DNA of 14,327 nt from a virus: the UHGV virus genome UHGV-0149611. One strand, given 5' to 3'. A program made the translations under genes and the position numbers. The notes beneath the pieces are model-generated. The model ran no database searches. It saw nothing but the letters and a program-made list of their open reading frames with translations, and was not told the DNA's origin. Below, piece after piece: positions 1,823-14,327 of this stretch (its first letter is position 1; each line of letters opens with the position of its first letter).

Positions 1823-1876
1823 GGGGCTAAATAGCCCCAGATACCTCAACAGCCCCTATTTAAAGGGGCTTTTTTA
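1823..1876 (+). terminator. Rho-independent terminator: hairpin GGGGCT/AGCCCC (1823-1838), then AGCCCCT-ATTTAA-AGGGGCT (1851-1870) followed by TTTTTT (1871-1876)
   Basis: Perfect 7-bp GC-rich stem plus a 6-T tract immediately downstream of the last rightward small ORF. Confidence 0.8.
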
Positions 1877-3420
1877 CGTCTATTGAATCCTTATACAATC
1901 CCTTTCCAGAATCTTATCAGACCTTAAAAGCAATAACTCTATAGTCTACTCTATAACCTCTTATCAAATCAACTTAAATAAAAGCCAATAACCCCCAGAA
2001 AGGGGATGGCCCATTTAAACGCTCTATAAAGCTCTATAACAGCCTTATCAACCTAACTTAAGGGATTGCATTAACCAACCTTAAAAAGCTCTTTACAGGG
2101 CTTTATAGAGACTTAAAAGAATCTTATAAGGGTGTAAGCTTTATCATCTCGTTAGTATCTTGTGAATAACTAAAAAGGGCTATGAGATAGGAATCTATCG
2201 AATCCTATTGTTAGTGTCTTAAAAGTATGTTATAGGGGCTTAAAAGTTACTTCAAAGTTACGTAAAAGGGGTTATAAAGTTACGTAAATGCTAACCCCCT
2301 TAACATTATCTTAACAATCCCTACATAGTTATGCTTGTTAGAGACTTGTTAGCCACTTGTTAAATCTCTGTTAAGACCACGTAAAAGCCTTGTAAGAGTC
2401 TTTGACATAGCCTTAAAAGTTCCTGTAAAGCCCTATAAAGAGGTGTCTGTATAGTTGGGGTGTAACTACTAGGAAGAGACTTAAAAGGGGCTATACAGAG
2501 CTATAGAGAGCTTTTAAGAGGTATGTTTAAGGAATCACTAAGAAGGGAAAGGGAACGATAAGAAAGAGATAGTGACCATGTTAATAGCTTGTTAAAAAGA
2601 TTAAACACTTGTTAGAGACTTGTTAATTATCTTAACAAAATAACTCTTAAAAATTAACTTGTTAGCTCTTGTTAGTCATCTGTTAAGATTCTGTAAAGCC
2701 CATGTATCAACTGTTAAGAAACTGTTAAGCCCTTGTTAGTTCTGTTAAGAATCTGTTAAGACCTATGAAGAGTTGTTAAGAGCTTGAGAGAGTTGTTAAG
2801 AAATTGTTAAGGATATTTTAAAATTTTGCAAAGTACTTGTAAGGGAGTTGTTAAGGGCTACCAAGCAGATATACACCCTATTCAGATATTTTTGAGTTCC
2901 TTCAAAGACCCTAAAAAATGACTTGATAGTCCTATTTTATAAAAATTTTAAGATTCTGAATAATTACCTAGACAGTCTTTTAAAAATACAGGTAATAACA
3001 GGCTTATAAGATACCTTGTTAGTACCGTGTTAGACCTTGTGAGATAAGGTCTGTAAAGATATTCCTGTTAAGTTTGTTAAAACAGTCTATATAGAGGCTT
3101 AGTAATACCTAGTGAACACCTATAGAGAGTAACATAGCTGACATAGAGATTAAGAGGTGTATAGGAGCTTCTAAGAGGGTATAGAGAGATGGTTAAGGTG
3201 ATTGTATAGGTTGTTTAGAAGGCTTGTTAGAAGAGTGTTTAGAAGGGCTATTTAGAAGGGTTATACAGAGGGCTATTAAGACCACTAGATAGTTACTAAG
3301 ATACTATATAGTACTATATAACTATATAGAGAGTAAGATTAAGAAGGTTGTTAAGAAGGATAGATATTTTATTCACATATGATGGTGACCAAGAGGTTGG
3401 GACAACCGATAAAATTTTAT
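1877..3420. repeat. ~1.5-kb non-coding region of degenerate short words (CTTAAAAG, CTATAAAG, CTTGTTAG, CTGTTAAG, TTAGAAG, CTATATAG), partly phased at ~10-11 bp
   Basis: No ORF of 60 aa or more on either strand; stop-rich in all frames; YTGTTARG words starting at 2588, 2609, 2619, 2659, 2669, 2680, 2711, 2722, 2732, 2742, 2753, 2773, 2793, 2804. Confidence 0.8.
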
Positions 3421-3451
3421 AAAAATTAAAAAGCCCCCAATTAAGGAGGCT
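3421..3451 (-). terminator. Rho-independent terminator candidate at the end of the leftward gene block
   Basis: On the minus strand: AGCCTCC-TTAATT-GGGGGCT hairpin followed by TTTTTAATTTTT, just downstream of the stop at 3463. Confidence 0.6.
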
Positions 3452-3462
3452 CTTAAGATATT

Positions 3463-10700: not shown

Positions 10701-10843
10701 AGATAATCCTCTTGTCTTCTGTAATTTTGAAAGAACAGGTACAGACCAATTTCAGAGGATGAATAGTAGATTAACTCTACCCTTTTTGATTCCTTACAGT
10801 GATTGGTATTCTTACCTTTCTTCGGTTTATTTGATTTTCTCAT
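10682..10843 (-). CDS. hypothetical small basic protein (53 aa from ATG at 10843; the ORF track begins at a TTG at 10864)
   Basis: GGAGA 5 nt upstream of the ATG at 10843-10841; lysine-rich N-terminus; overlaps the next gene by 19 nt in another frame. Confidence 0.4.
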   Translation of the reverse strand: MRKSNKPKKGKNTNHCKESKRVELIYYSSSEIGLYLFFQNYRRQEDYLCVVPN

Positions 10844-10888
10844 TAAGTCTCCTTTGTAGAACAAGGCAGACCTACAGCTTTAAGTAAG

Positions 10889-10917
10889 ATGGTACAGTAA
10901 TCCATACAACAAGTCAA
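10889..10917 (-). promoter_or_regulatory. Candidate leftward promoter: TTGACT, 17-bp spacer, TACCAT (minus strand)
   Basis: Hexamers read on the reverse complement; weak -10. Confidence 0.3.
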
Positions 10918-10930
10918 GAACTATTGCAAG

Positions 10931-10979
10931 TTAAAAAAGTTGTTGACAAAGTACTTGACAAGGTGTAGGCTTATAAATA
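10931..10979 (+). promoter_or_regulatory. Rightward control region: A-rich upstream, tandem TTGACA boxes (10943-10948, 10955-10960), TATAAATA (10972-10979)
   Basis: Same AAAAAGTTGTTGACA context as other promoter candidates; spacing to TATAAAT is not canonical for sigma70 (11 or 23 bp). Confidence 0.3.
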
Positions 10980-11092
10980 CTTAGAAGATAACTTAAAAGG
11001 TTCCTCTAAAAAGGCTATTTAAACAGATATCTTTCTGGATATCTATCTTTTATCTTAAAAGCCTTTTAAGAGGTCTTATAAGAGGCATACCA

Positions 11093-11464
11093 ATGAAAAA
11101 CAGAACAAACAAAGGCCAGTTTAAAAAAGGCCAGTCTGGAAACCCATCTGGAAGACCAAAAGGCTCTCGTAACAAAAGCTCACTTGTAAAAGCTCAACTG
11201 ACCATTGATAATTCTGCTGAGTTTGCTGCAAAGTTGTTTGAGGCGGTTGTTACAAGGGATGCTGCTAAGCTTGCAGAGTTCGGTTTGACGACTGACGATG
11301 TAAACCTGAAGTCGATGATGGAGGCTGGTAAAACCATCATGACTCACTCAGCAGGTGAGATGAAAGCGATTGCAGCAGACACTAAGAAGACCCCTGATAA
11401 TGGTGGTCAGTCTCAGACAGATAACAAACCAACGTTCTCTGCTGTAGCGACTCTCAAAAAATAA
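11093..11464 (+). CDS. hypothetical small basic protein (123 aa) with N-terminal GNPSGRPKGS (AT-hook-like) motif
   Basis: AAGAGG 7 nt upstream of ATG; GRP core flanked by basic residues; Ala-rich probably helical C-terminal part. Confidence 0.65.
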   Translation: MKNRTNKGQFKKGQSGNPSGRPKGSRNKSSLVKAQLTIDNSAEFAAKLFEAVVTRDAAKLAEFGLTTDDVNLKSMMEAGKTIMTHSAGEMKAIAADTKKTPDNGGQSQTDNKPTFSAVATLKK

Positions 11465-11476
11465 TTTTAAAAGGTG

Positions 11477-11506
11477 TTGACAGACTCTACAAAGTTGCTC
11501 TAAAGT
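11477..11506 (+). promoter_or_regulatory. sigma70-like promoter candidate: TTGACA (11477-11482), 18-bp spacer, TAAAGT; overlaps inverted repeat GACAGACT/AGTCTGTC
   Basis: Exact -35 with TTTTAAAAGGTG upstream; 8-bp inverted repeat spans the spacer and -10. Confidence 0.4.
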
Positions 11507-11545
11507 CTGTCACATCAACAAACAAATGAGAGAAGAGAGTAAAAT

Positions 11546-12961
11546 ATGAGCGAATTATTTAAACATGCGCACCTTCATGCAGGTCGAACTGAAAATGGTG
11601 CTGTAAACCATACTTCATCAATGTCTGCTCTTGTAGACTTTTACAAAGCTGCTGGTTCAAGCCGTAGCAACGTAGAAATCTTACCAGACCTGTTCTACAA
11701 AGCTTTGCGTGAGGATGTTGATGTTGCAGTTCGTATTTTGCTTCATATGCGAGATGTACGAGAAGGTATGGGTGAGCGTAAAGCCTTCAGAACTGTTTTA
11801 CTTCAAGCGATTGAAGACAAAGTTTTAGAGCCTACGCAGGTTCTTCGCATTATGGATAAGATTGCAGAACTTGGTCGTTTTGATGACTTCAAAATCTTCG
11901 TAGGTACTCGTTTCGAGACAGATGCCTTCAAACATCTAGAAGCAGCATTACTAGACCCTGCAACAGCAGGTTTGGCGGCTAAGTGGTTACCACGAGTCAA
12001 ACCACGTCATAAGCAGTTTGTAAAACGTTTCTGCAAGTTTGCCAACTTGAGTGAGAAAGAGTACCGCACACTGTTGTCTGCACTATCTGATACAGTTGAG
12101 CAAAAAATCTCTGCTAATGAGTTTGGTAAGATTGACTACAGTAAGATTCCTTCACTTGCTGCTGCACGTTACCAAAAACTGTTTAACCGCAAAGATGGAG
12201 AACGCTACAAAGCTTACATCGAGTCCTTATCAAAGGGTGAGACTAAGATTAATGCTGGTGCTGTTTACCCATACGATGTAATTAAATCTGTTAAGCATGG
12301 TAATGCAGATGTTGCTAATGAGCAGTGGAAAGCACTACCAAACTGGATGGCAGAGGGTGAAAACATCTTGTGTATGTCTGATGTTTCAAGCTCAATGTCT
12401 TGGGTGAATTTTGGTTCAATTACTGCTCTTGATATTGGTGTTTCACTTGCATTGTATGTAGCAGAACGTAATACAGGTTGCTTTAAGAATGAGTTGATGG
12501 TTTATTCAACAAACCCTCACTTCATCGAACTGAGTGGTGATTTACGAAACCGTCATCGTCAGGTGATGCGACACGTTGAATATGGCTCAACTAACTTACA
12601 AGCAGCTTTTGACCGTATTCTTGAAACAGGTAAAAGAAACAACTTGACTCAGAAAGATATGCCAAGTAAGCTTATCATCTTCTCCGATATGGAGTTCAAT
12701 CAGGTTGATGGAGCTAACGGTCGTACAAACTTTGAAGCAATTCGTAGTAAGTACAAAAAAGCTGGATACGAAATGCCTCAACTGGTATTCTGGTACTTAG
12801 CAAACCGTAATGGTACTTGCGAAGTGTCTGTTAAGGATAACGGTGTAGCAATGGTATCTGGTTTTTCTCCAGCTACTTTAAAAGCTCTGCTTGGTGGTGA
12901 GAAGTTTGACCCAATCAGCGTAATGCTCAAAGCAGTAATGATTGACCGTTATATCTGGTAA
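11546..12961 (+). CDS. von Willebrand factor A (vWA) domain protein with complete MIDAS motif (471 aa); possibly Ro60/TROVE-like
   Basis: C-terminal ~190 aa: ILCMSDVSSSM (DxSxS), GSTNL (Thr), LIIFSDME (Asp) in the expected order of a vWA fold; N-terminal ~270 aa appears helical; Ro60-like architecture is inferred only. Confidence 0.8.
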   Translation: MSELFKHAHLHAGRTENGAVNHTSSMSALVDFYKAAGSSRSNVEILPDLFYKALREDVDVAVRILLHMRDVREGMGERKAFRTVLLQAIEDKVLEPTQVLRIMDKIAELGRFDDFKIFVGTRFETDAFKHLEAALLDPATAGLAAKWLPRVKPRHKQFVKRFCKFANLSEKEYRTLLSALSDTVEQKISANEFGKIDYSKIPSLAAARYQKLFNRKDGERYKAYIESLSKGETKINAGAVYPYDVIKSVKHGNADVANEQWKALPNWMAEGENILCMSDVSSSMSWVNFGSITALDIGVSLALYVAERNTGCFKNELMVYSTNPHFIELSGDLRNRHRQVMRHVEYGSTNLQAAFDRILETGKRNNLTQKDMPSKLIIFSDMEFNQVDGANGRTNFEAIRSKYKKAGYEMPQLVFWYLANRNGTCEVSVKDNGVAMVSGFSPATLKALLGGEKFDPISVMLKAVMIDRYIW

Positions 12962-12979
12962 AAAGTTTTAAAAAGGGTA

Positions 12980-13008
12980 TTGACAATGTGTTTGATGCCC
13001 TTTAATAT
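12980..13008 (+). promoter_or_regulatory. sigma70 promoter: TTGACA (12980-12985), 17-bp spacer, TAATAT (13003-13008)
   Basis: Near-consensus hexamers with canonical spacing and TTTTAAAAAGGGTA upstream; about 120 nt upstream of the first tRNA. Confidence 0.55.
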
Positions 13009-13070
13009 GTTCTACATAGAAACGAAACGAGAGCTTTTCTAAGATACTGAAAAATATTTTAAAAAAGTTC

Positions 13071-13100
13071 TTGACAACCACTAAAAAATAATGTTAAAGT
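13071..13100 (+). promoter_or_regulatory. sigma70-like promoter candidate: TTGACA (13071-13076), 18-bp spacer, TAAAGT (13095-13100)
   Basis: Same architecture as 11477-11506; 27 nt upstream of tRNA-Pro. Confidence 0.45.
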
Positions 13101-13126
13101 GGTTACATAGAGTTTGAAAAGTTTAT

Positions 13127-13203
13127 CTCTGTTTAGCTCAGCTTGGTAGAGCGTTCCGTTTGGGGCGGTAAGGCCGGAGGTTCAAGTCCTCCAACAGAGA
13201 CCA
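13127..13203 (+). tRNA. tRNA-Pro (anticodon UGG), CCA encoded
   Basis: Acceptor CTCTGTT/AACAGAG, D-loop AGCTTGGTA, anticodon loop TTTGGGG, T-arm GGAGG-TTCAAGT-CCTCC, discriminator A, CCA; C1:G72 as is typical for tRNA-Pro. Confidence 0.85.
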
Positions 13204-13210
13204 AATTAAT

Positions 13211-13288
13211 GTTCCAGTAGACAAAATGGTAAAGTCACCACTCTTTCAAAGTGGATATCTGAGGGTTCAAATCCCTTCTGGAACGCCA
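13211..13288 (+). tRNA. tRNA-Glu (anticodon UUC), CCA encoded
   Basis: Acceptor GTTCCAG/CTGGAAC, anticodon arm CCACT-CTTTCAA-AGTGG, T-arm GAGGG-TTCAAAT-CCCTT, discriminator G, CCA. Confidence 0.75.
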
Positions 13289-13295
13289 GTTTTGA

Positions 13296-13367
13296 CAGAA
13301 GACCAATTACAGCAAACTTAATCTACTCATCTGACACGAAATCGGACAAAGAAGATATTTGGTCTGG
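13296..13367 (+). ncRNA. Stem-bounded element a: CAGAAGACCAA ... TTGGTCTGG
   Basis: 7-bp arms AGACCAA/TTGGTCT enclosing 52 nt; conserved flanks CAGAAGACC and GGTCTGG shared with elements b-d. Confidence 0.4.
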
Positions 13368-13378
13368 TCATTGAGAAT

Positions 13379-13455
13379 TGCGGGTATAGAGAAAGGGCGT
13401 CTCACATGTCTCATTAGCATGGTATCGGCAGGTTCGACTCCTGCACCCGCCTCCA
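13379..13455 (+). tRNA. tRNA with anticodon CAU (Met or Ile2); atypical features
   Basis: T-arm GCAGG-TTCGACT-CCTGC, acceptor 3' ACCCGCC plus U plus CCA, D-arm GAGA/TCTC, anticodon arm CATGT-CTCATTA-GCATG; register of the 5' acceptor strand ambiguous by 1 nt; position 37 is U. Confidence 0.55.
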
Positions 13456-13461
13456 ATTTTG

Positions 13462-13521
13462 CAGAAGACCGTATTCAGCAACAAAATACTTTTTGCGGAT
13501 AAAAGAAAAAACACGGTCTGG
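13462..13521 (+). ncRNA. Stem-bounded element b: CAGAAGACCGT ... ACGGTCTGG
   Basis: 7-bp arms AGACCGT/ACGGTCT enclosing 40 nt; arm sequence co-varies relative to elements a and c. Confidence 0.4.
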
Positions 13522-13532
13522 CAATGTATTAA

Positions 13533-13609
13533 GGTTAGGAAGCACATAAGGTATGTGCGGTCGCCTGTTAAGCGAATGGCACAGGGTTCGAATCCCTGAC
13601 TAACCGCCA
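13533..13609 (+). tRNA. tRNA-Asn (anticodon GUU), CCA encoded
   Basis: D-arm GCAC/GTGC, anticodon loop CTGTTAA, T-arm CAGGG-TTCGAAT-CCCTG, acceptor 3' ACTAACC, discriminator G, CCA. Confidence 0.8.
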
Positions 13610-13618
13610 AATTTAAAT

Positions 13619-13706
13619 GTGTCGTTATCCCGTAGATGGTAGCGGTGGGGACTGTAAATCCCTTGTCATTGAGACTCGGTAGGTTCGACTCCTACACGAC
13701 ACACCA
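13619..13706 (+). tRNA. tRNA-Tyr (anticodon GUA), long variable arm, CCA encoded
   Basis: Acceptor GTGTCGT/ACGACAC, anticodon arm GGGGA-CTGTAAA-TCCCT, ~15-nt variable arm, T-arm GTAGG-TTCGACT-CCTAC, discriminator A, CCA; 88 nt. Confidence 0.85.
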
Positions 13707-13711
13707 ATAAA

Positions 13712-13789
13712 GGTTATGTAGTTTAATTTGGTTAAAATACTACCCTGTCACGGGAGATGATGAGGGTTCAAATCCCTTCGTAACCGCCA
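13712..13789 (+). tRNA. tRNA-Asp (anticodon GUC), CCA encoded
   Basis: Acceptor GGTTATG/CGTAACC (one G-U), anticodon loop CTGTCAC, T-arm GAGGG-TTCAAAT-CCCTT, discriminator G, CCA. Confidence 0.8.
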
Positions 13790-13814
13790 ATTTTGAGAGG
13801 GCTATTTAGCCCCT

Positions 13815-13848
13815 CCCTTAAAGAGTTCTTACGAGTATTCTTTAAGGG
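13815..13848 (+). other. Perfect 10-bp hairpin CCCTTAAAGA / TCTTTAAGGG with 14-nt loop; a smaller GGGCT/AGCCC hairpin sits at 13799-13812
   Basis: Exact reverse-complementary arms; no U-tract follows, so not a classic intrinsic terminator. Confidence 0.5.
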
Positions 13849-13850
13849 AG

Positions 13851-13924
13851 CAGAAGACCAAATACAGCAAGAATGTATGAAATTTCAAGCCAATTTAATT
13901 TTGAAAATTTAAAACTTGGTCTGG
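13851..13924 (+). ncRNA. Stem-bounded element c: CAGAAGACCAA ... TTGGTCTGG
   Basis: 7-bp arms AGACCAA/TTGGTCT enclosing 54 nt of AT-rich sequence. Confidence 0.4.
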
Positions 13925-13937
13925 CTCAACAAATTTA

Positions 13938-14070
13938 CAGAAGACCGTTTACAGCAAAACTTAAACAATCTATTTCTCCGGTAAAGAAAAGGCGAAGGTT
14001 CGATTCCTTCACTCGGCAGATGTCGAGTTGGTGTAATGGTAGCACTTAAGATGATAAACAACGGTCTGGT
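13938..14070 (+). ncRNA. Stem-bounded element d enclosing a circularly permuted tRNA-like domain; candidate Y-RNA-like tRNA mimic
   Basis: 8-bp arms AGACCGTT (13942-13949) / AACGGTCT (14060-14067); inside, in order: hairpin TTTCT-CCGGTAA-AGAAA (13973-13989), T-arm GAAGG-TTCGATT-CCTTC (13994-14010), acceptor 3' ACTCGGC (14011-14017), 4-nt link AGAT (14018-14021), acceptor 5' GTCGAGT (14022-14028, pairs 7/7 with one G-U), then U8 and D-arm GTGT-AATGGTA-GCAC (14031-14045). Confidence 0.45.
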
Positions 14071-14212
14071 AATTATCTTTGTAGATAAGTTATTAAGCTT
14101 ACCTGTGAGTATGCGACCACAAAGGGTGAAAGGGTAAATTCTAGATTTAAACCCAAAAAGGCACATCGCTACAGACCTTAAGCAAGTCTGGGTAGCTTAT
14201 CTACAAAGATAA
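14071..14212 (+). repeat. 19-bp perfect inverted repeat AATTATCTTTGTAGATAAG (14071-14089) / CTTATCTACAAAGATAATT (14194-14212) enclosing ~104 nt
   Basis: Exact reverse complementarity; the enclosed segment contains a compact CAGACC-TTAAGCAA-GTCTGG version of the element motif (14171-14190). Confidence 0.7.
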
Positions 14213-14218
14213 TTTAAT

Positions 14219-14278
14219 GGAAGTGTAGCAGAATGGTGATGCGGCAGACTTTTAATCTGACAGGCGATGGGTTCGAAT
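14219..14278 (+). tRNA. tRNA-Lys (anticodon UUU), 3' end truncated by the end of the real insert
   Basis: Acceptor 5' GGAAGTG, D-arm GCA/TGC, anticodon arm GCAGA-CTTTTAA-TCTGA, T-stem 5' ATGGG plus T-loop TTCGAAT, then adapter begins. Confidence 0.55.
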
Positions 14279-14327
14279 CTGTCTCTTATACACATCTCCG
14301 AGCCCACGAGACACTCGCTAATCTCGT
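14279..14327. other. Illumina Nextera adapter read-through (not biological sequence)
   Basis: CTGTCTCTTATACACATCT + CCGAGCCCACGAGAC + 8-nt index ACTCGCTA + ATCTCGT, the transposase mosaic end followed by the i7/P7 adapter layout. Confidence 0.95.

What the first reader, a model, noticed from the sequence alone, without database searches (positions are those of the whole stretch)
11546..12961. vWA/MIDAS protein upstream of the tRNA and structured-RNA cluster: possible Ro60 (TROVE) orthologue
The 471-aa protein has an unambiguous vWA domain with all MIDAS elements (DVSSS, T in GSTNL, D in IIFSDME) preceded by ~270 aa of likely helical sequence. The Ro60/Rsr family has the same two-part layout, and in bacteria and some phages Ro60 genes are reported to sit next to their Y RNA genes. 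Here the gene is followed, after a promoter region, by tRNAs and the stem-bounded elements. The match is by architecture and neighbourhood only; the N-terminal part is shorter than I would expect for a full TROVE domain.
Basis: inference. Interest (0 to 1): 0.8.

Follow-up and report, generated by a model that had tools for sequence, protein, structure and literature searches.

The report
Ro60-like phage protein with partner RNAs
This Felix-O1-type phage gene encodes a ring-shaped Ro60-like RNA-binding protein of a separate family (DUF2828), and four small RNA genes next to it belong to a previously unlinked RNA family that sits beside this gene in many unrelated phages and closely resembles the "Class I" RNAs of Dictyostelium.

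Summary
ORF 11546-12961 (+) encodes 471 aa, with a helical N-terminal part of about 265 aa and a vWA domain. Its MIDAS residues (D279, S281, S283, T349, D381) are invariant in 88 homologues.

This reading is already published for the 98%-identical Bas63 gp130, which counters the Ppl defence system.

What appears new is the RNA partner. Four elements downstream share a terminal 7-bp stem (AG-N5 / N5'-CU), then UUACAGCAA, then a variable interior. The same module flanks DUF2828 genes in 51 of 86 diverse phage loci, always on the gene strand and about ten-fold enriched within 300 nt of the gene.

- Short forms (55-65 nt) mirror Dictyostelium Class I RNAs.
- Long forms, including window 13939-14071, enclose a permuted tRNA-like domain as in bacterial YrlA.

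Protein-RNA binding is inferred, not shown.

The parts
11093..11464 (+). Upstream gene, DUF5681 protein (123 aa). It is a lineage-specific neighbour, not a general partner.
   Evidence: Pfam DUF5681 E 7e-14. tblastn finds it only in Felixounavirus-related loci (L001-L003, L006, L016-L021) among 95 loci.
11477..11506 (+). Sigma-70-like promoter candidate ahead of the Ro60-like gene (TTGACA-18-TAAAGT).
   Evidence: 10 of 12 matches. This is a consensus match only; the total count of sites in the region is not above shuffles.
11546..12961 (+). Ro60-fold protein of the DUF2828/DUF7788 family (471 aa), orthologue of Bas63 gp130.
11546..12340 (+). N-terminal all-helical part (residues 1-265), superposing on the Ro60 HEAT-repeat (TROVE) ring in the predicted structure.
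   Evidence: 16 helices in the model. 398 of 471 residues align to 1yvp_A, which is far more than the vWA domain alone. No sequence-level TROVE signal.
12365..12958 (+). vWA domain with a complete, invariant MIDAS site (D279, S281, S283, T349, D381).
   Evidence: hhalign to the Ro60 vWA gives probability 91.5%, E 8.5e-7. vWA_Ro60 is sub-threshold in 13 of 88 members.
12980..13100 (+). Two sigma-70-like promoter candidates (12980-13008, 13071-13100) ahead of the tRNA and small-RNA cluster.
   Evidence: Each has 10 of 12 matches. Consensus matches only.
13127..13789 (+). Six tRNA genes (Pro, Glu, Met, Asn, Tyr, Asp) interleaved with the small RNA elements. They are the start of a cluster of about 26 tRNAs in related phages.
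   Evidence: ARAGORN, Rfam, annotation of NC_041979.
13297..13369 (+). W1, a short Class-I-like RNA: AGACCAA / UUACAGCAA / variable interior / UUGGUCU-G.
   Evidence: 38.1 bits, E 3e-8, with model R1, which was trained only on distant phages. MFE fold gives the terminal stem.
13463..13523 (+). W2, a short Class-I-like RNA.
   Evidence: R1 30.7 bits, E 3e-6. Weak Rfam RF01414 hit at 13467-13520, 24 bits.
13852..13926 (+). W3, a short Class-I-like RNA.
   Evidence: R1 23.5 bits, E 2.7e-4; fold.
13939..14071 (+). W4, the long form. It has the same terminal stem and UUACAGCAA motif, enclosing a V hairpin (13969-13992), a T-arm GAAGGUUCGAUUCCUUC (13994-14010), a closed 7-bp 'acceptor' hairpin (14011-14028) and a D-arm (14030-14046). 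This is a circularly permuted tRNA-like domain in the YrlA order V-T-AS-D.
   Evidence: Motif and stem. Four-way fold at -30.6 kcal/mol. Weak tRNA hit at 13961-14011. The same layout recurs in at least 9 other phage loci. The YrlA order is taken from PMC4201824.

Best explanation
The gene encodes a Ro60-type ring protein: a helical-repeat toroid closed by a vWA/MIDAS domain. It belongs to the large phage and eukaryote DUF2828/DUF7788 family. I propose that it assembles with the four small RNAs encoded just downstream (W1-W4) into Ro60/Y-RNA-like ribonucleoproteins. In this model the shared RNA module is the protein-binding site, as the conserved bulged helix is for Y RNAs. The module is a 7-bp terminal stem starting AG and ending CU, followed by single-stranded UUACAGCAA. 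The variable interior would supply the second function. In W4 that interior is a permuted tRNA mimic that could engage tRNA-recognising or RNA-decay enzymes, as YrlA tethers Rsr to PNPase. The invariant MIDAS site probably docks a protein partner. The RNAs lie between tRNA genes on the same strand, downstream of the same two promoter-like sites, so co-transcription and excision by host tRNA-processing nucleases is my assumption. By orthology with Bas63 gp130, the physiological output includes protection from the host Ppl (ATPase + PHP) defence system. Shown here: the fold, the family placement, the RNA family with its covarying stem, and its genomic linkage to the gene. Shown by others: the anti-Ppl phenotype of the orthologue. 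Inferred: protein-RNA binding, RNA processing, and how the RNP counters defence.
Against: No direct evidence of binding or of expression of W1-W4. The N-terminal domain has no detectable sequence similarity to TROVE, so the ring and its RNA-binding surfaces rest on a predicted structure. The RNAs fall below the Rfam thresholds for YrlA (no window hit at E<=10) and for Class I RNA (best 31.2 bits against a gathering score of 41.5). About 40% of DUF2828 loci show no element within the 3 kb flanks searched. In the preprint, gp130 alone, expressed from a plasmid or from the T7 genome without the Bas63 RNAs, restored T7 growth on Ppl. The anti-Ppl activity therefore may not need these RNAs. My stem statistics are partly circular, because the elements were selected for complementarity. 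The strand bias, the positional enrichment and the unselected seventh pair are the independent parts.
Confidence: 0.6

Rival explanations
1. The protein is a Ro60-fold counter-defence factor that acts alone, for example by binding Ppl or a host RNA through its MIDAS site or ring. The neighbouring elements would be independent small RNAs that do not bind it.
For: gp130 alone, without the Bas63 RNAs, restored T7 plaquing on Ppl and even improved plating beyond the no-defence control (PMC11482910). About 40% of homologous loci have no detectable element nearby.
Against: This does not explain why the RNA module is about ten-fold enriched within 300 nt of the gene, on the gene strand only, in phages of Proteobacteria, Firmicutes, Actinobacteria and Campylobacterota. 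Host RNAs could substitute in the T7 experiment.
Confidence: 0.2
2. The elements are cis-acting signals of the tRNA cluster or of the gene's own mRNA (processing punctuation, terminators or autoregulatory operator sites) rather than stable trans-acting RNAs.
For: In the window they lie between tRNA genes and would be co-transcribed with them. In other phages they lie directly 5' or 3' of the gene, where UTR elements would be.
Against: They occur in tandem arrays of 2-6 with a conserved module but unrelated interiors, on either side of the gene, and also without nearby tRNAs. None occurs in the remaining 4 kb of the same tRNA cluster or in tRNA-rich TROVE-Ro60 loci. They have no T-run after the stem, as a terminator would. 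Some carry a full tRNA-like domain, which suggests a stable RNA.
Confidence: 0.12
3. The protein is an ordinary vWA/MIDAS adaptor working with an AAA+ ATPase (MoxR, CoxE or midasin type), and the Ro60 resemblance is an artefact of the prediction.
For: VWA_2 and VWA_CoxE give weak hits in 54 and 19 of 88 members. Midasin MIDAS domains are the best non-Ro60 structural hits. One Aeromonas phage has an ATPase gene about 1 kb upstream.
Confidence: 0.04

Closest known systems
Ro60/Rsr with Y RNAs (Xenopus Ro60 1yvp; Deinococcus Rsr 2nvo; Salmonella Rsr with YrlA and YrlB)
   Same: Two-part architecture of a helical ring plus a vWA domain with MIDAS. It is the best whole-protein structural match. The gene is encoded next to, and on the same strand as, small RNAs that join their 5' and 3' ends in a conserved stem. 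There is a long RNA with a permuted tRNA-like domain (V-T-AS-D) plus shorter RNAs, like YrlA and YrlB.
   Different: No sequence membership in TROVE. The ring is about 100 residues shorter than in vertebrate Ro60. The presumed binding module is AG-N5 stem + UUACAGCAA, not GNCGAAN0-1G or GGUCCGA. The Rfam YrlA model does not detect the window RNAs.
Bas63 gp130 (Escherichia phage JohannRWettstein, MZ501086; PhageMaP preprint PMC11482910)
   Same: Orthologue: 98.3% amino-acid identity over the full length, with the same flanking genes and tRNAs. It has already been described as structurally Ro60-like and upstream of the tRNAs, and shown to counter the Ppl defence system.
   Different: The preprint guessed that some annotated tRNA genes might be Y RNAs. 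The candidates found here are instead unannotated elements in the gaps between the tRNA genes.
Thermus phage phiLo Ro60 with Yrl1 and Yrl2 (9kop, 9l5y; PMC12135203)
   Different: It is deposited as a TROVE-domain protein. It was not found by a DUF2828 family profile at E<=10, so it belongs to a different sequence family.
Dictyostelium Class I RNAs (Rfam RF01414; PMC7919456)
   Same: Short terminal stem of variable sequence that starts with a conserved G preceded by A. An adjacent single-stranded motif: the Rfam consensus reads CCUUACAGCAA and the phage consensus UUACAGCAA. A variable interior, a 3' end CUG(U) whose C pairs with the 5' G, a length of about 55-65 nt, and genes in clusters.
   Different: Phage elements score 24-31 bits against a gathering score of 41.5. 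There is one nucleotide less between stem and motif. They have no eukaryotic DUSE promoter. Class I RNAs were reported as unique to Dictyostelia, and their known binder is the RRM protein Rnp1A. Whether Dictyostelium has a DUF2828 protein could not be checked here.
Mycobacteriophage and Streptomyces-phage 'Ro-like RNA binding proteins'
   Same: The same product name is used in GenBank for homologues of this protein (for example LilDestine gp55, 34% identity).
   Different: The label covers two distinct families. One is true TROVE + vWA_Ro60 proteins (Cali gp224, Jada gp106) with YrlA-like RNAs nearby. The other is DUF2828 + DUF7788 proteins (LilDestine gp55) with Class-I-like RNAs nearby.

Membership tests
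Ro60 / TROVE family (Pfam PF05731 + PF25045) | Sequence match to the TROVE domain HMM | tested here: not met
   No TROVE hit for the window protein at E<=1, and TROVE is not among the 25 most-matched of the 48 families found at E<=10 in 88 family members (only those 25 are listed). Control phage Ro60 proteins hit TROVE at E 1.7e-50 and 1.5e-36. hhalign does not align the N-terminal domains.
Ro60 / TROVE family (Pfam PF05731 + PF25045) | Ro60-type vWA domain with a MIDAS motif | tested here: inconclusive
   MIDAS is complete and invariant. hhalign to the Ro60 vWA gives probability 90-92%, E about 1e-6. vWA_Ro60 is sub-threshold in only 13 of 88 members, best E 7e-4. The curated Pfam family for this region is DUF7788.
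Ro60 / TROVE family (Pfam PF05731 + PF25045) | Three-dimensional architecture: helical-repeat ring closed by the vWA domain | tested here: met
Ro60 / TROVE family (Pfam PF05731 + PF25045) | Binds Y RNA on the outer ring surface and misfolded RNA ends in the cavity | not testable with these tools
   Needs RIP or CLIP, gel shift, or a solved complex.
DUF2828 / DUF7788 family (PHROG 850) | Matches to both Pfam models above their gathering scores, over the full-length family profile | tested here: met
   DUF2828 103.5 bits (cut-off 29) and DUF7788 148 bits (cut-off 27.1). PHROG 850 covers residues 1-471, E 5e-184. 8911 cluster representatives at E<=1e-3.
YrlA (Rfam RF02553) bacterial Y RNA | Score at or above the Rfam gathering threshold (69 bits) | tested here: not met
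   No YrlA hit in window 10800-14327 at E<=10. The positive control also falls below the threshold: canonical phage Ro60 loci give only 36.1 and 30.8 bits. Related DUF2828 loci give 23-29 bits.
YrlA (Rfam RF02553) bacterial Y RNA | Terminal stem enclosing a permuted tRNA-like domain in the order V, T, closed acceptor stem, D | tested here: met
   W4 MFE fold: V 13969-13992, T 13994-14010, 7-bp closed stem 14011-14028, D 14030-14046. The order is as described in PMC4201824. This rests on a single-sequence fold plus recurrence in at least 9 other loci, without a formal covariation test of the inner arms.
YrlA (Rfam RF02553) bacterial Y RNA | GNCGAAN0-1G motif near the 5' end (presumed Rsr binding site) | tested here: not met
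   The window elements carry CAGAAGACC...UUACAGCAA instead.
Dictyostelium Class I RNA (Rfam RF01414) | Score at or above the Rfam gathering threshold (41.5 bits) | tested here: not met
   Window W2 scores 24 bits. The best phage elements score 31.2, 30.7, 29.6, 28.0 and 26.1 bits.
Dictyostelium Class I RNA (Rfam RF01414) | Short stem joining the 5' and 3' ends, with structure conserved but sequence variable | tested here: met
   7 pairs, 100% paired in 29 sequences, all with double-sided changes. The inner 6 pairs were selected for complementarity; the seventh was not.
Dictyostelium Class I RNA (Rfam RF01414) | Conserved 11-nt motif next to the 5' stem strand, AAG start, and CUGU end with C pairing to the 5' G | tested here: met
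   Consensus AG-N5-UUACAGCAA...N5'-CUG(U/A/G). C14, G16, C17, A18 and A19 are invariant. The match to the Rfam consensus CUUACAGCAAU is shown. The features are as described in PMC7919456. The window elements end CUGG rather than CUGU.
Dictyostelium Class I RNA (Rfam RF01414) | DUSE promoter about 60 nt upstream, and dictyostelid host | tested here: not met
   These are phage sequences with sigma-70-like promoter candidates. The DUSE motif itself was not searched for.

The most novel reading that the evidence does not exclude
DUF2828 Ro60-fold proteins and 'terminal stem + UUACAGCAA' RNAs form an ancient ribonucleoprotein, parallel to Ro60/Y RNA, that is shared between many phages and eukaryotes. 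Under this reading, Dictyostelium Class I RNAs (abundant, developmentally important, of unknown mechanism and thought unique to dictyostelids) are the eukaryotic counterparts, with a DUF2828 protein as their unrecognised partner. The phage versions would be used for RNA surveillance or counter-defence.
Probability: 0.3. Interest if true: 0.85.

Novelty: new variant of a known kind. Interest (0 to 1): 0.68.

Why it matters
- **A second Ro60-type system.** It would have its own protein family (thousands of phage members, plus plant and other eukaryotic members) and its own RNA recognition module. Both are directly testable with Bas63, where gene 130 already has a knockout phenotype.
- **A candidate mechanism for a counter-defence gene.** Bas63 gp130 counters Ppl, and an RNP offers a way to explain how.
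- **Unannotated gaps explained.** Part of the unannotated space in phage tRNA clusters would be accounted for.
- **Annotation clean-up.** The 'Ro-like RNA binding protein' label covers two different families, and this work separates them.
- **An open question in Dictyostelium.** The near-identity of the RNA module with Class I RNAs gives a concrete hypothesis for a class of RNAs whose function has been open since their discovery.

Tried and rejected
- **Sequence search of the PDB.** The single protein gave nothing. The family profile gave only a non-significant Ro60 vWA hit (E 0.49).
- **Profile-profile comparison with a TROVE alignment.** Using 25 and then 88 family members, only the vWA domain aligned. 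Homology of the N-terminal domain therefore remains structural only.
- **Rfam at gathering and at E<=10.** No Y_RNA or YrlA hit in the window or in the full tRNA cluster of a related phage.
- **Supplementary YrlA alignments of Chen 2014.** Not held. Canonical phage Ro60 loci served as positive controls instead.
- **DUF5681 neighbour as a conserved partner.** Rejected, because it occurs only in the Felixounavirus-related group.
- **AAA+ partner idea.** Rejected, because annotated loci show no conserved ATPase neighbour.
- **AlphaFold-database fold search for a Dictyostelium homologue.** The library was unavailable.
- **Avesson 2011, on the proteins bound to Class I RNA.** Not held.
- **Literature searches.** Searches for DUF2828, UCP015417 and 'Ro-like' with tRNA and Y RNA found nothing on these RNAs.
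- **Yersinia phage P778 elements.** These have variant CAGC ends. They are visible by eye and to my scanner, but fall below E 0.01 with model R1.

Full report
**Origin and observation**

The window is a Felix-O1-type myovirus (Felixounavirus). Bases 11000-14279 are 99.7% identical to Escherichia phage vB_EcoM_ASO1A, and 294 phage records match.

ORF 11546-12961 (+) is real and encodes 471 aa. D279, S281, S283, T349 and D381 are invariant in an alignment of 88 homologues that share only 31-58% identity with the window protein.

An AlphaFold2 model built on a 25-sequence alignment is confident (pLDDT 85.8, pTM 0.86). It shows 16 helices in residues 1-265 and an alpha/beta domain in residues 274-471.

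Downstream on the same strand there are two promoter-like sites, six tRNA genes, a seventh truncated tRNA and four stem-bounded elements.

**What the protein is**

By sequence it belongs to Pfam DUF2828 (E 1.5e-29) plus DUF7788 (E 3e-43), and to PHROG 850, which is labelled 'RNA-binding protein' (E 5e-184). The family is very large: 8911 cluster representatives at E<=1e-3, and 710 deposited phage genomes of Proteobacteria, Firmicutes, Actinobacteria, Campylobacterota and Fusobacteria.

By predicted structure it is a Ro60.
- The 12 best Foldseek matches in the PDB are all Ro60 proteins aligned end to end (E about 4e-9, TM 0.65/0.59). The next matches cover only the vWA domain (TM 0.22).

Sequence-level membership in the Ro60/TROVE family is not met either.
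- Canonical phage Ro60 proteins (mycobacteriophage Cali gp224, Streptomyces phage Jada gp106) hit TROVE and vWA_Ro60 strongly. The window protein and its relatives from LilDestine and A511 hit only DUF2828 and DUF7788.
- None of 88 members shows TROVE among the listed families, and 13 show a sub-threshold vWA_Ro60 hit.
- hhalign between the two families aligns only the vWA domain (probability 90-92%, E about 1e-6).

I therefore call it a Ro60-fold protein of a separate family, not an orthologue.

**What was already known**

Bas63 (Escherichia phage JohannRWettstein, MZ501086) gene bas63_0130 is 98.3% identical over the full length and has the same neighbours.

The PhageMaP preprint (PMC11482910) reports several things about its product, gp130.
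- gp130 has high structural similarity to Ro60 and lies directly upstream of the tRNA genes.
- Its deletion impairs growth on a host carrying the Ppl (ATPase + PHP) defence system.
- gp130 transferred to T7, or supplied from a plasmid, restores T7 growth on Ppl.
- The authors speculated that some annotated tRNA genes might be Y RNAs.

Homologues in mycobacteriophages are already annotated 'Ro-like RNA binding protein'. The protein-level interpretation is thus correct in substance but not new.

**The RNAs**

The four elements in the window share CAGAAGACCNNNWNCAGCAA at their 5' side, with 4 matches against 0.01 expected. They share GGUCUGG at their 3' side. The related phage TP1 has the same four and none in the remaining roughly 4 kb of its 26-tRNA cluster.

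Yersinia phage P778 (protein 53% identical, same gene order) has four analogous elements. Their stem sequences differ in a compensatory way: AGACC/GGUCU becomes GGACU/AGUCC or GGAUU/AAUCC.

MFE folds give the same terminal helix in 6 of the 8 elements folded (W1-W4, Y2 and Y3, but not Y1 or Y4).

Vibrio phage BUCT194 is an N4-like podovirus whose protein is 37% identical. It carries at least five such elements in the 700-nt gap just upstream of its gene, with entirely different stems but the same UAACAGCAA or UUACAGCAA motif.

**Test of linkage**

I fetched 75 further diverse loci from IMG/VR (38-47% protein identity). I scanned 86 loci for WWWC[AC]GCAA preceded by a 6-nt strand whose complement lies 10-260 nt downstream.
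- There were 142 hits on the gene strand and 38 on the opposite strand.
- Density was 1.14 and 1.22 per kb in the 300 nt immediately upstream and downstream of the gene, against about 0.1 per kb inside the gene and further away.
- 52 of 86 loci had at least one hit within 600 nt of the gene.
- Of 82 motif occurrences near the gene on its strand, 96% had a 6-bp stem and 87% a 7-bp stem. The three background classes had a 7-bp stem in 15-40% of cases. Fisher p is 2e-17.

Two canonical TROVE-Ro60 loci, one of them rich in tRNAs, had no hits. Mycobacteriophage LilDestine has two elements directly after the gene and no tRNA within 5 kb. The link is therefore to the gene rather than to tRNA clusters.

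**Covariance model as an independent check**

I aligned 29 short elements from phages other than Felixounavirus and Moogle.
- The 7-bp terminal stem is paired in all 203 cells.
- All 7 pairs show changes on both sides, and slid controls drop to 32-45% paired.
- The outermost pair, which my scanner did not require, is A-U in 24 sequences and U-A in 5.

The model R1 built from this alignment finds W1 (38.1 bits, E 3e-8), W2 (30.7 bits, E 3e-6) and W3 (23.5 bits, E 2.7e-4) as the three best hits in the window. The 5' part of W4 is the fourth.

Over 652 kb of related loci, all 76 hits at E<=0.01 are on the gene strand. 47 of them were not in the training set, and 51 of 86 loci have at least one.

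**Two forms, and two known relatives**

The short form is 5' (A/U)AG-N5-UUACAGCAA, then about 30-40 variable nt, then N5'-CUG(U/A/G) 3', for a total of 55-65 nt. This is the description of Dictyostelium Class I RNAs (PMC7919456):
- length 42-65 nt;
- a short terminal stem of variable sequence with compensatory changes;
- a conserved 11-nt motif next to the 5' strand, with T, C, C, A, A invariant at positions 3, 6, 9, 10 and 11;
- a conserved AAG start, and a CUGU end whose C pairs with the 5' G;
- genes in clusters.

The Rfam consensus for RF01414 reads GaUcuCCUUACAGCAAU...GagAuCUG and aligns to the phage elements with the motif identical. Scores are 24-31 bits in five different phages, below the gathering score of 41.5. 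Formal membership is therefore not met.

The long form is 110-126 nt and keeps the same closing module. It encloses a hairpin, a canonical T-arm (GGUUCGAWUCC), a closed 7-8-bp stem and a D-arm. This is the V-T-AS-D order of the bacterial Y RNA YrlA. It is seen in window W4 and in at least nine other loci. One of these scores 28.7 bits full-length against the YrlA model, and BUCT194 has two partial YrlA hits. The window itself has no YrlA hit.

**Mechanism**

The best-supported reading is a Ro60/Y-RNA-like RNP in which the terminal stem plus UUACAGCAA is the protein's recognition module. The precedents are these.
- Bacterial and phage Ro60 genes lie next to their Y RNAs, within 4 kb and on the same strand.
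- phiLo Ro60 binds two phage-encoded Yrl RNAs and modulates PNPase.

Binding here is inferred only from conserved linkage. One published result cuts against an obligatory RNA role: gp130 alone suffices against Ppl in T7. Host RNAs might substitute, or the RNP might serve another function, such as quality control or protection of the phage's own tRNAs.

**Novelty and verdict**

The Ro60-like nature of the protein is already known for the orthologue. The identification of a conserved, gene-linked RNA family as its likely partner appears new in the literature I could search. So does that family's resemblance to both Class I RNAs and YrlA.

DUF2828 also occurs in plants: plant papers mention it, and an old annotation notes similarity to Arabidopsis T31B5.30. 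I could not check Dictyostelium.

I rate this a new variant of a known kind, with interest 0.68.

Noticed in passing
window 14283-14327: The last 45 bases or so (CTGTCTCTTATACACATCTCCGAGCCCACGAGAC...) look like an Illumina Nextera/Tn5 mosaic-end adapter (from my own knowledge). They are not matched by any related phage: megablast covers only up to window 14279. The contig end is an unclipped adapter that truncates the tRNA at 14219-14290, which is a tRNA-Lys in related phages.
   Followed up: partly
window ~1850-3460: A stretch of 1.6 kb without any ORF of 50 aa or more. It has low G+C (0.32-0.33) and strongly positive GC skew. It is conserved in Felixounaviruses, but only at about 93% against 99.7% elsewhere, and one record annotates it with 'repeat_region' and 'terminator' features. 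It may be an origin or regulatory region.
   Followed up: partly
L010 (Listeria phage A511) 2465-3016: A ROOL RNA match (87.5 bits, gathering score 99.1, E 3.7e-16). It lies between a tRNA-Pro gene and the DUF2828 gene, about 650 nt upstream of two Class-I-like elements.
   Followed up: no
L011 3624-3738; L007 1494-1610; L043 2218-2330: tRNA-model hits of 113-117 nt (49-50 bits). In L011 the alignment shows a 48-nt insertion in the anticodon loop. In L011 and L007 a UAACAGCAA-type motif lies inside the hit, which suggests non-permuted tRNA-like RNAs carrying the same module.
   Followed up: partly
L003 (Yersinia phage vB_YenM_P778) 6851-11074: The deposited record annotates no tRNAs here and instead lists about 12 tiny 'hypothetical protein' ORFs. 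ARAGORN finds 24 tRNA genes.
   Followed up: yes
L001 9395-9699 and L003 8009-8149 (tRNA-cluster gaps beyond the window's 3' end): Weak tmRNA and permuted-tmRNA model hits (29.2 bits, E 0.004; 18.1 bits, E 0.003) in large gaps of the tRNA clusters. They hint at further tRNA-like non-coding RNAs.
   Followed up: no
GenBank product names across phage records: 'Ro-like RNA binding protein' is applied both to true TROVE + vWA_Ro60 proteins (about 540-550 aa, cluster C mycobacteriophages and Streptomyces phages) and to DUF2828 + DUF7788 proteins (about 470 aa). These are different families with different neighbouring RNAs.
   Followed up: yes
L004 (Vibrio phage ValKK3) 6487-7011: A DUF458 protein gene lies immediately downstream of the DUF2828 gene in this T4-like jumbo phage. 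No tRNAs lie within 5 kb, and the scanner gave only one hit, straddling the gene start.
   Followed up: no
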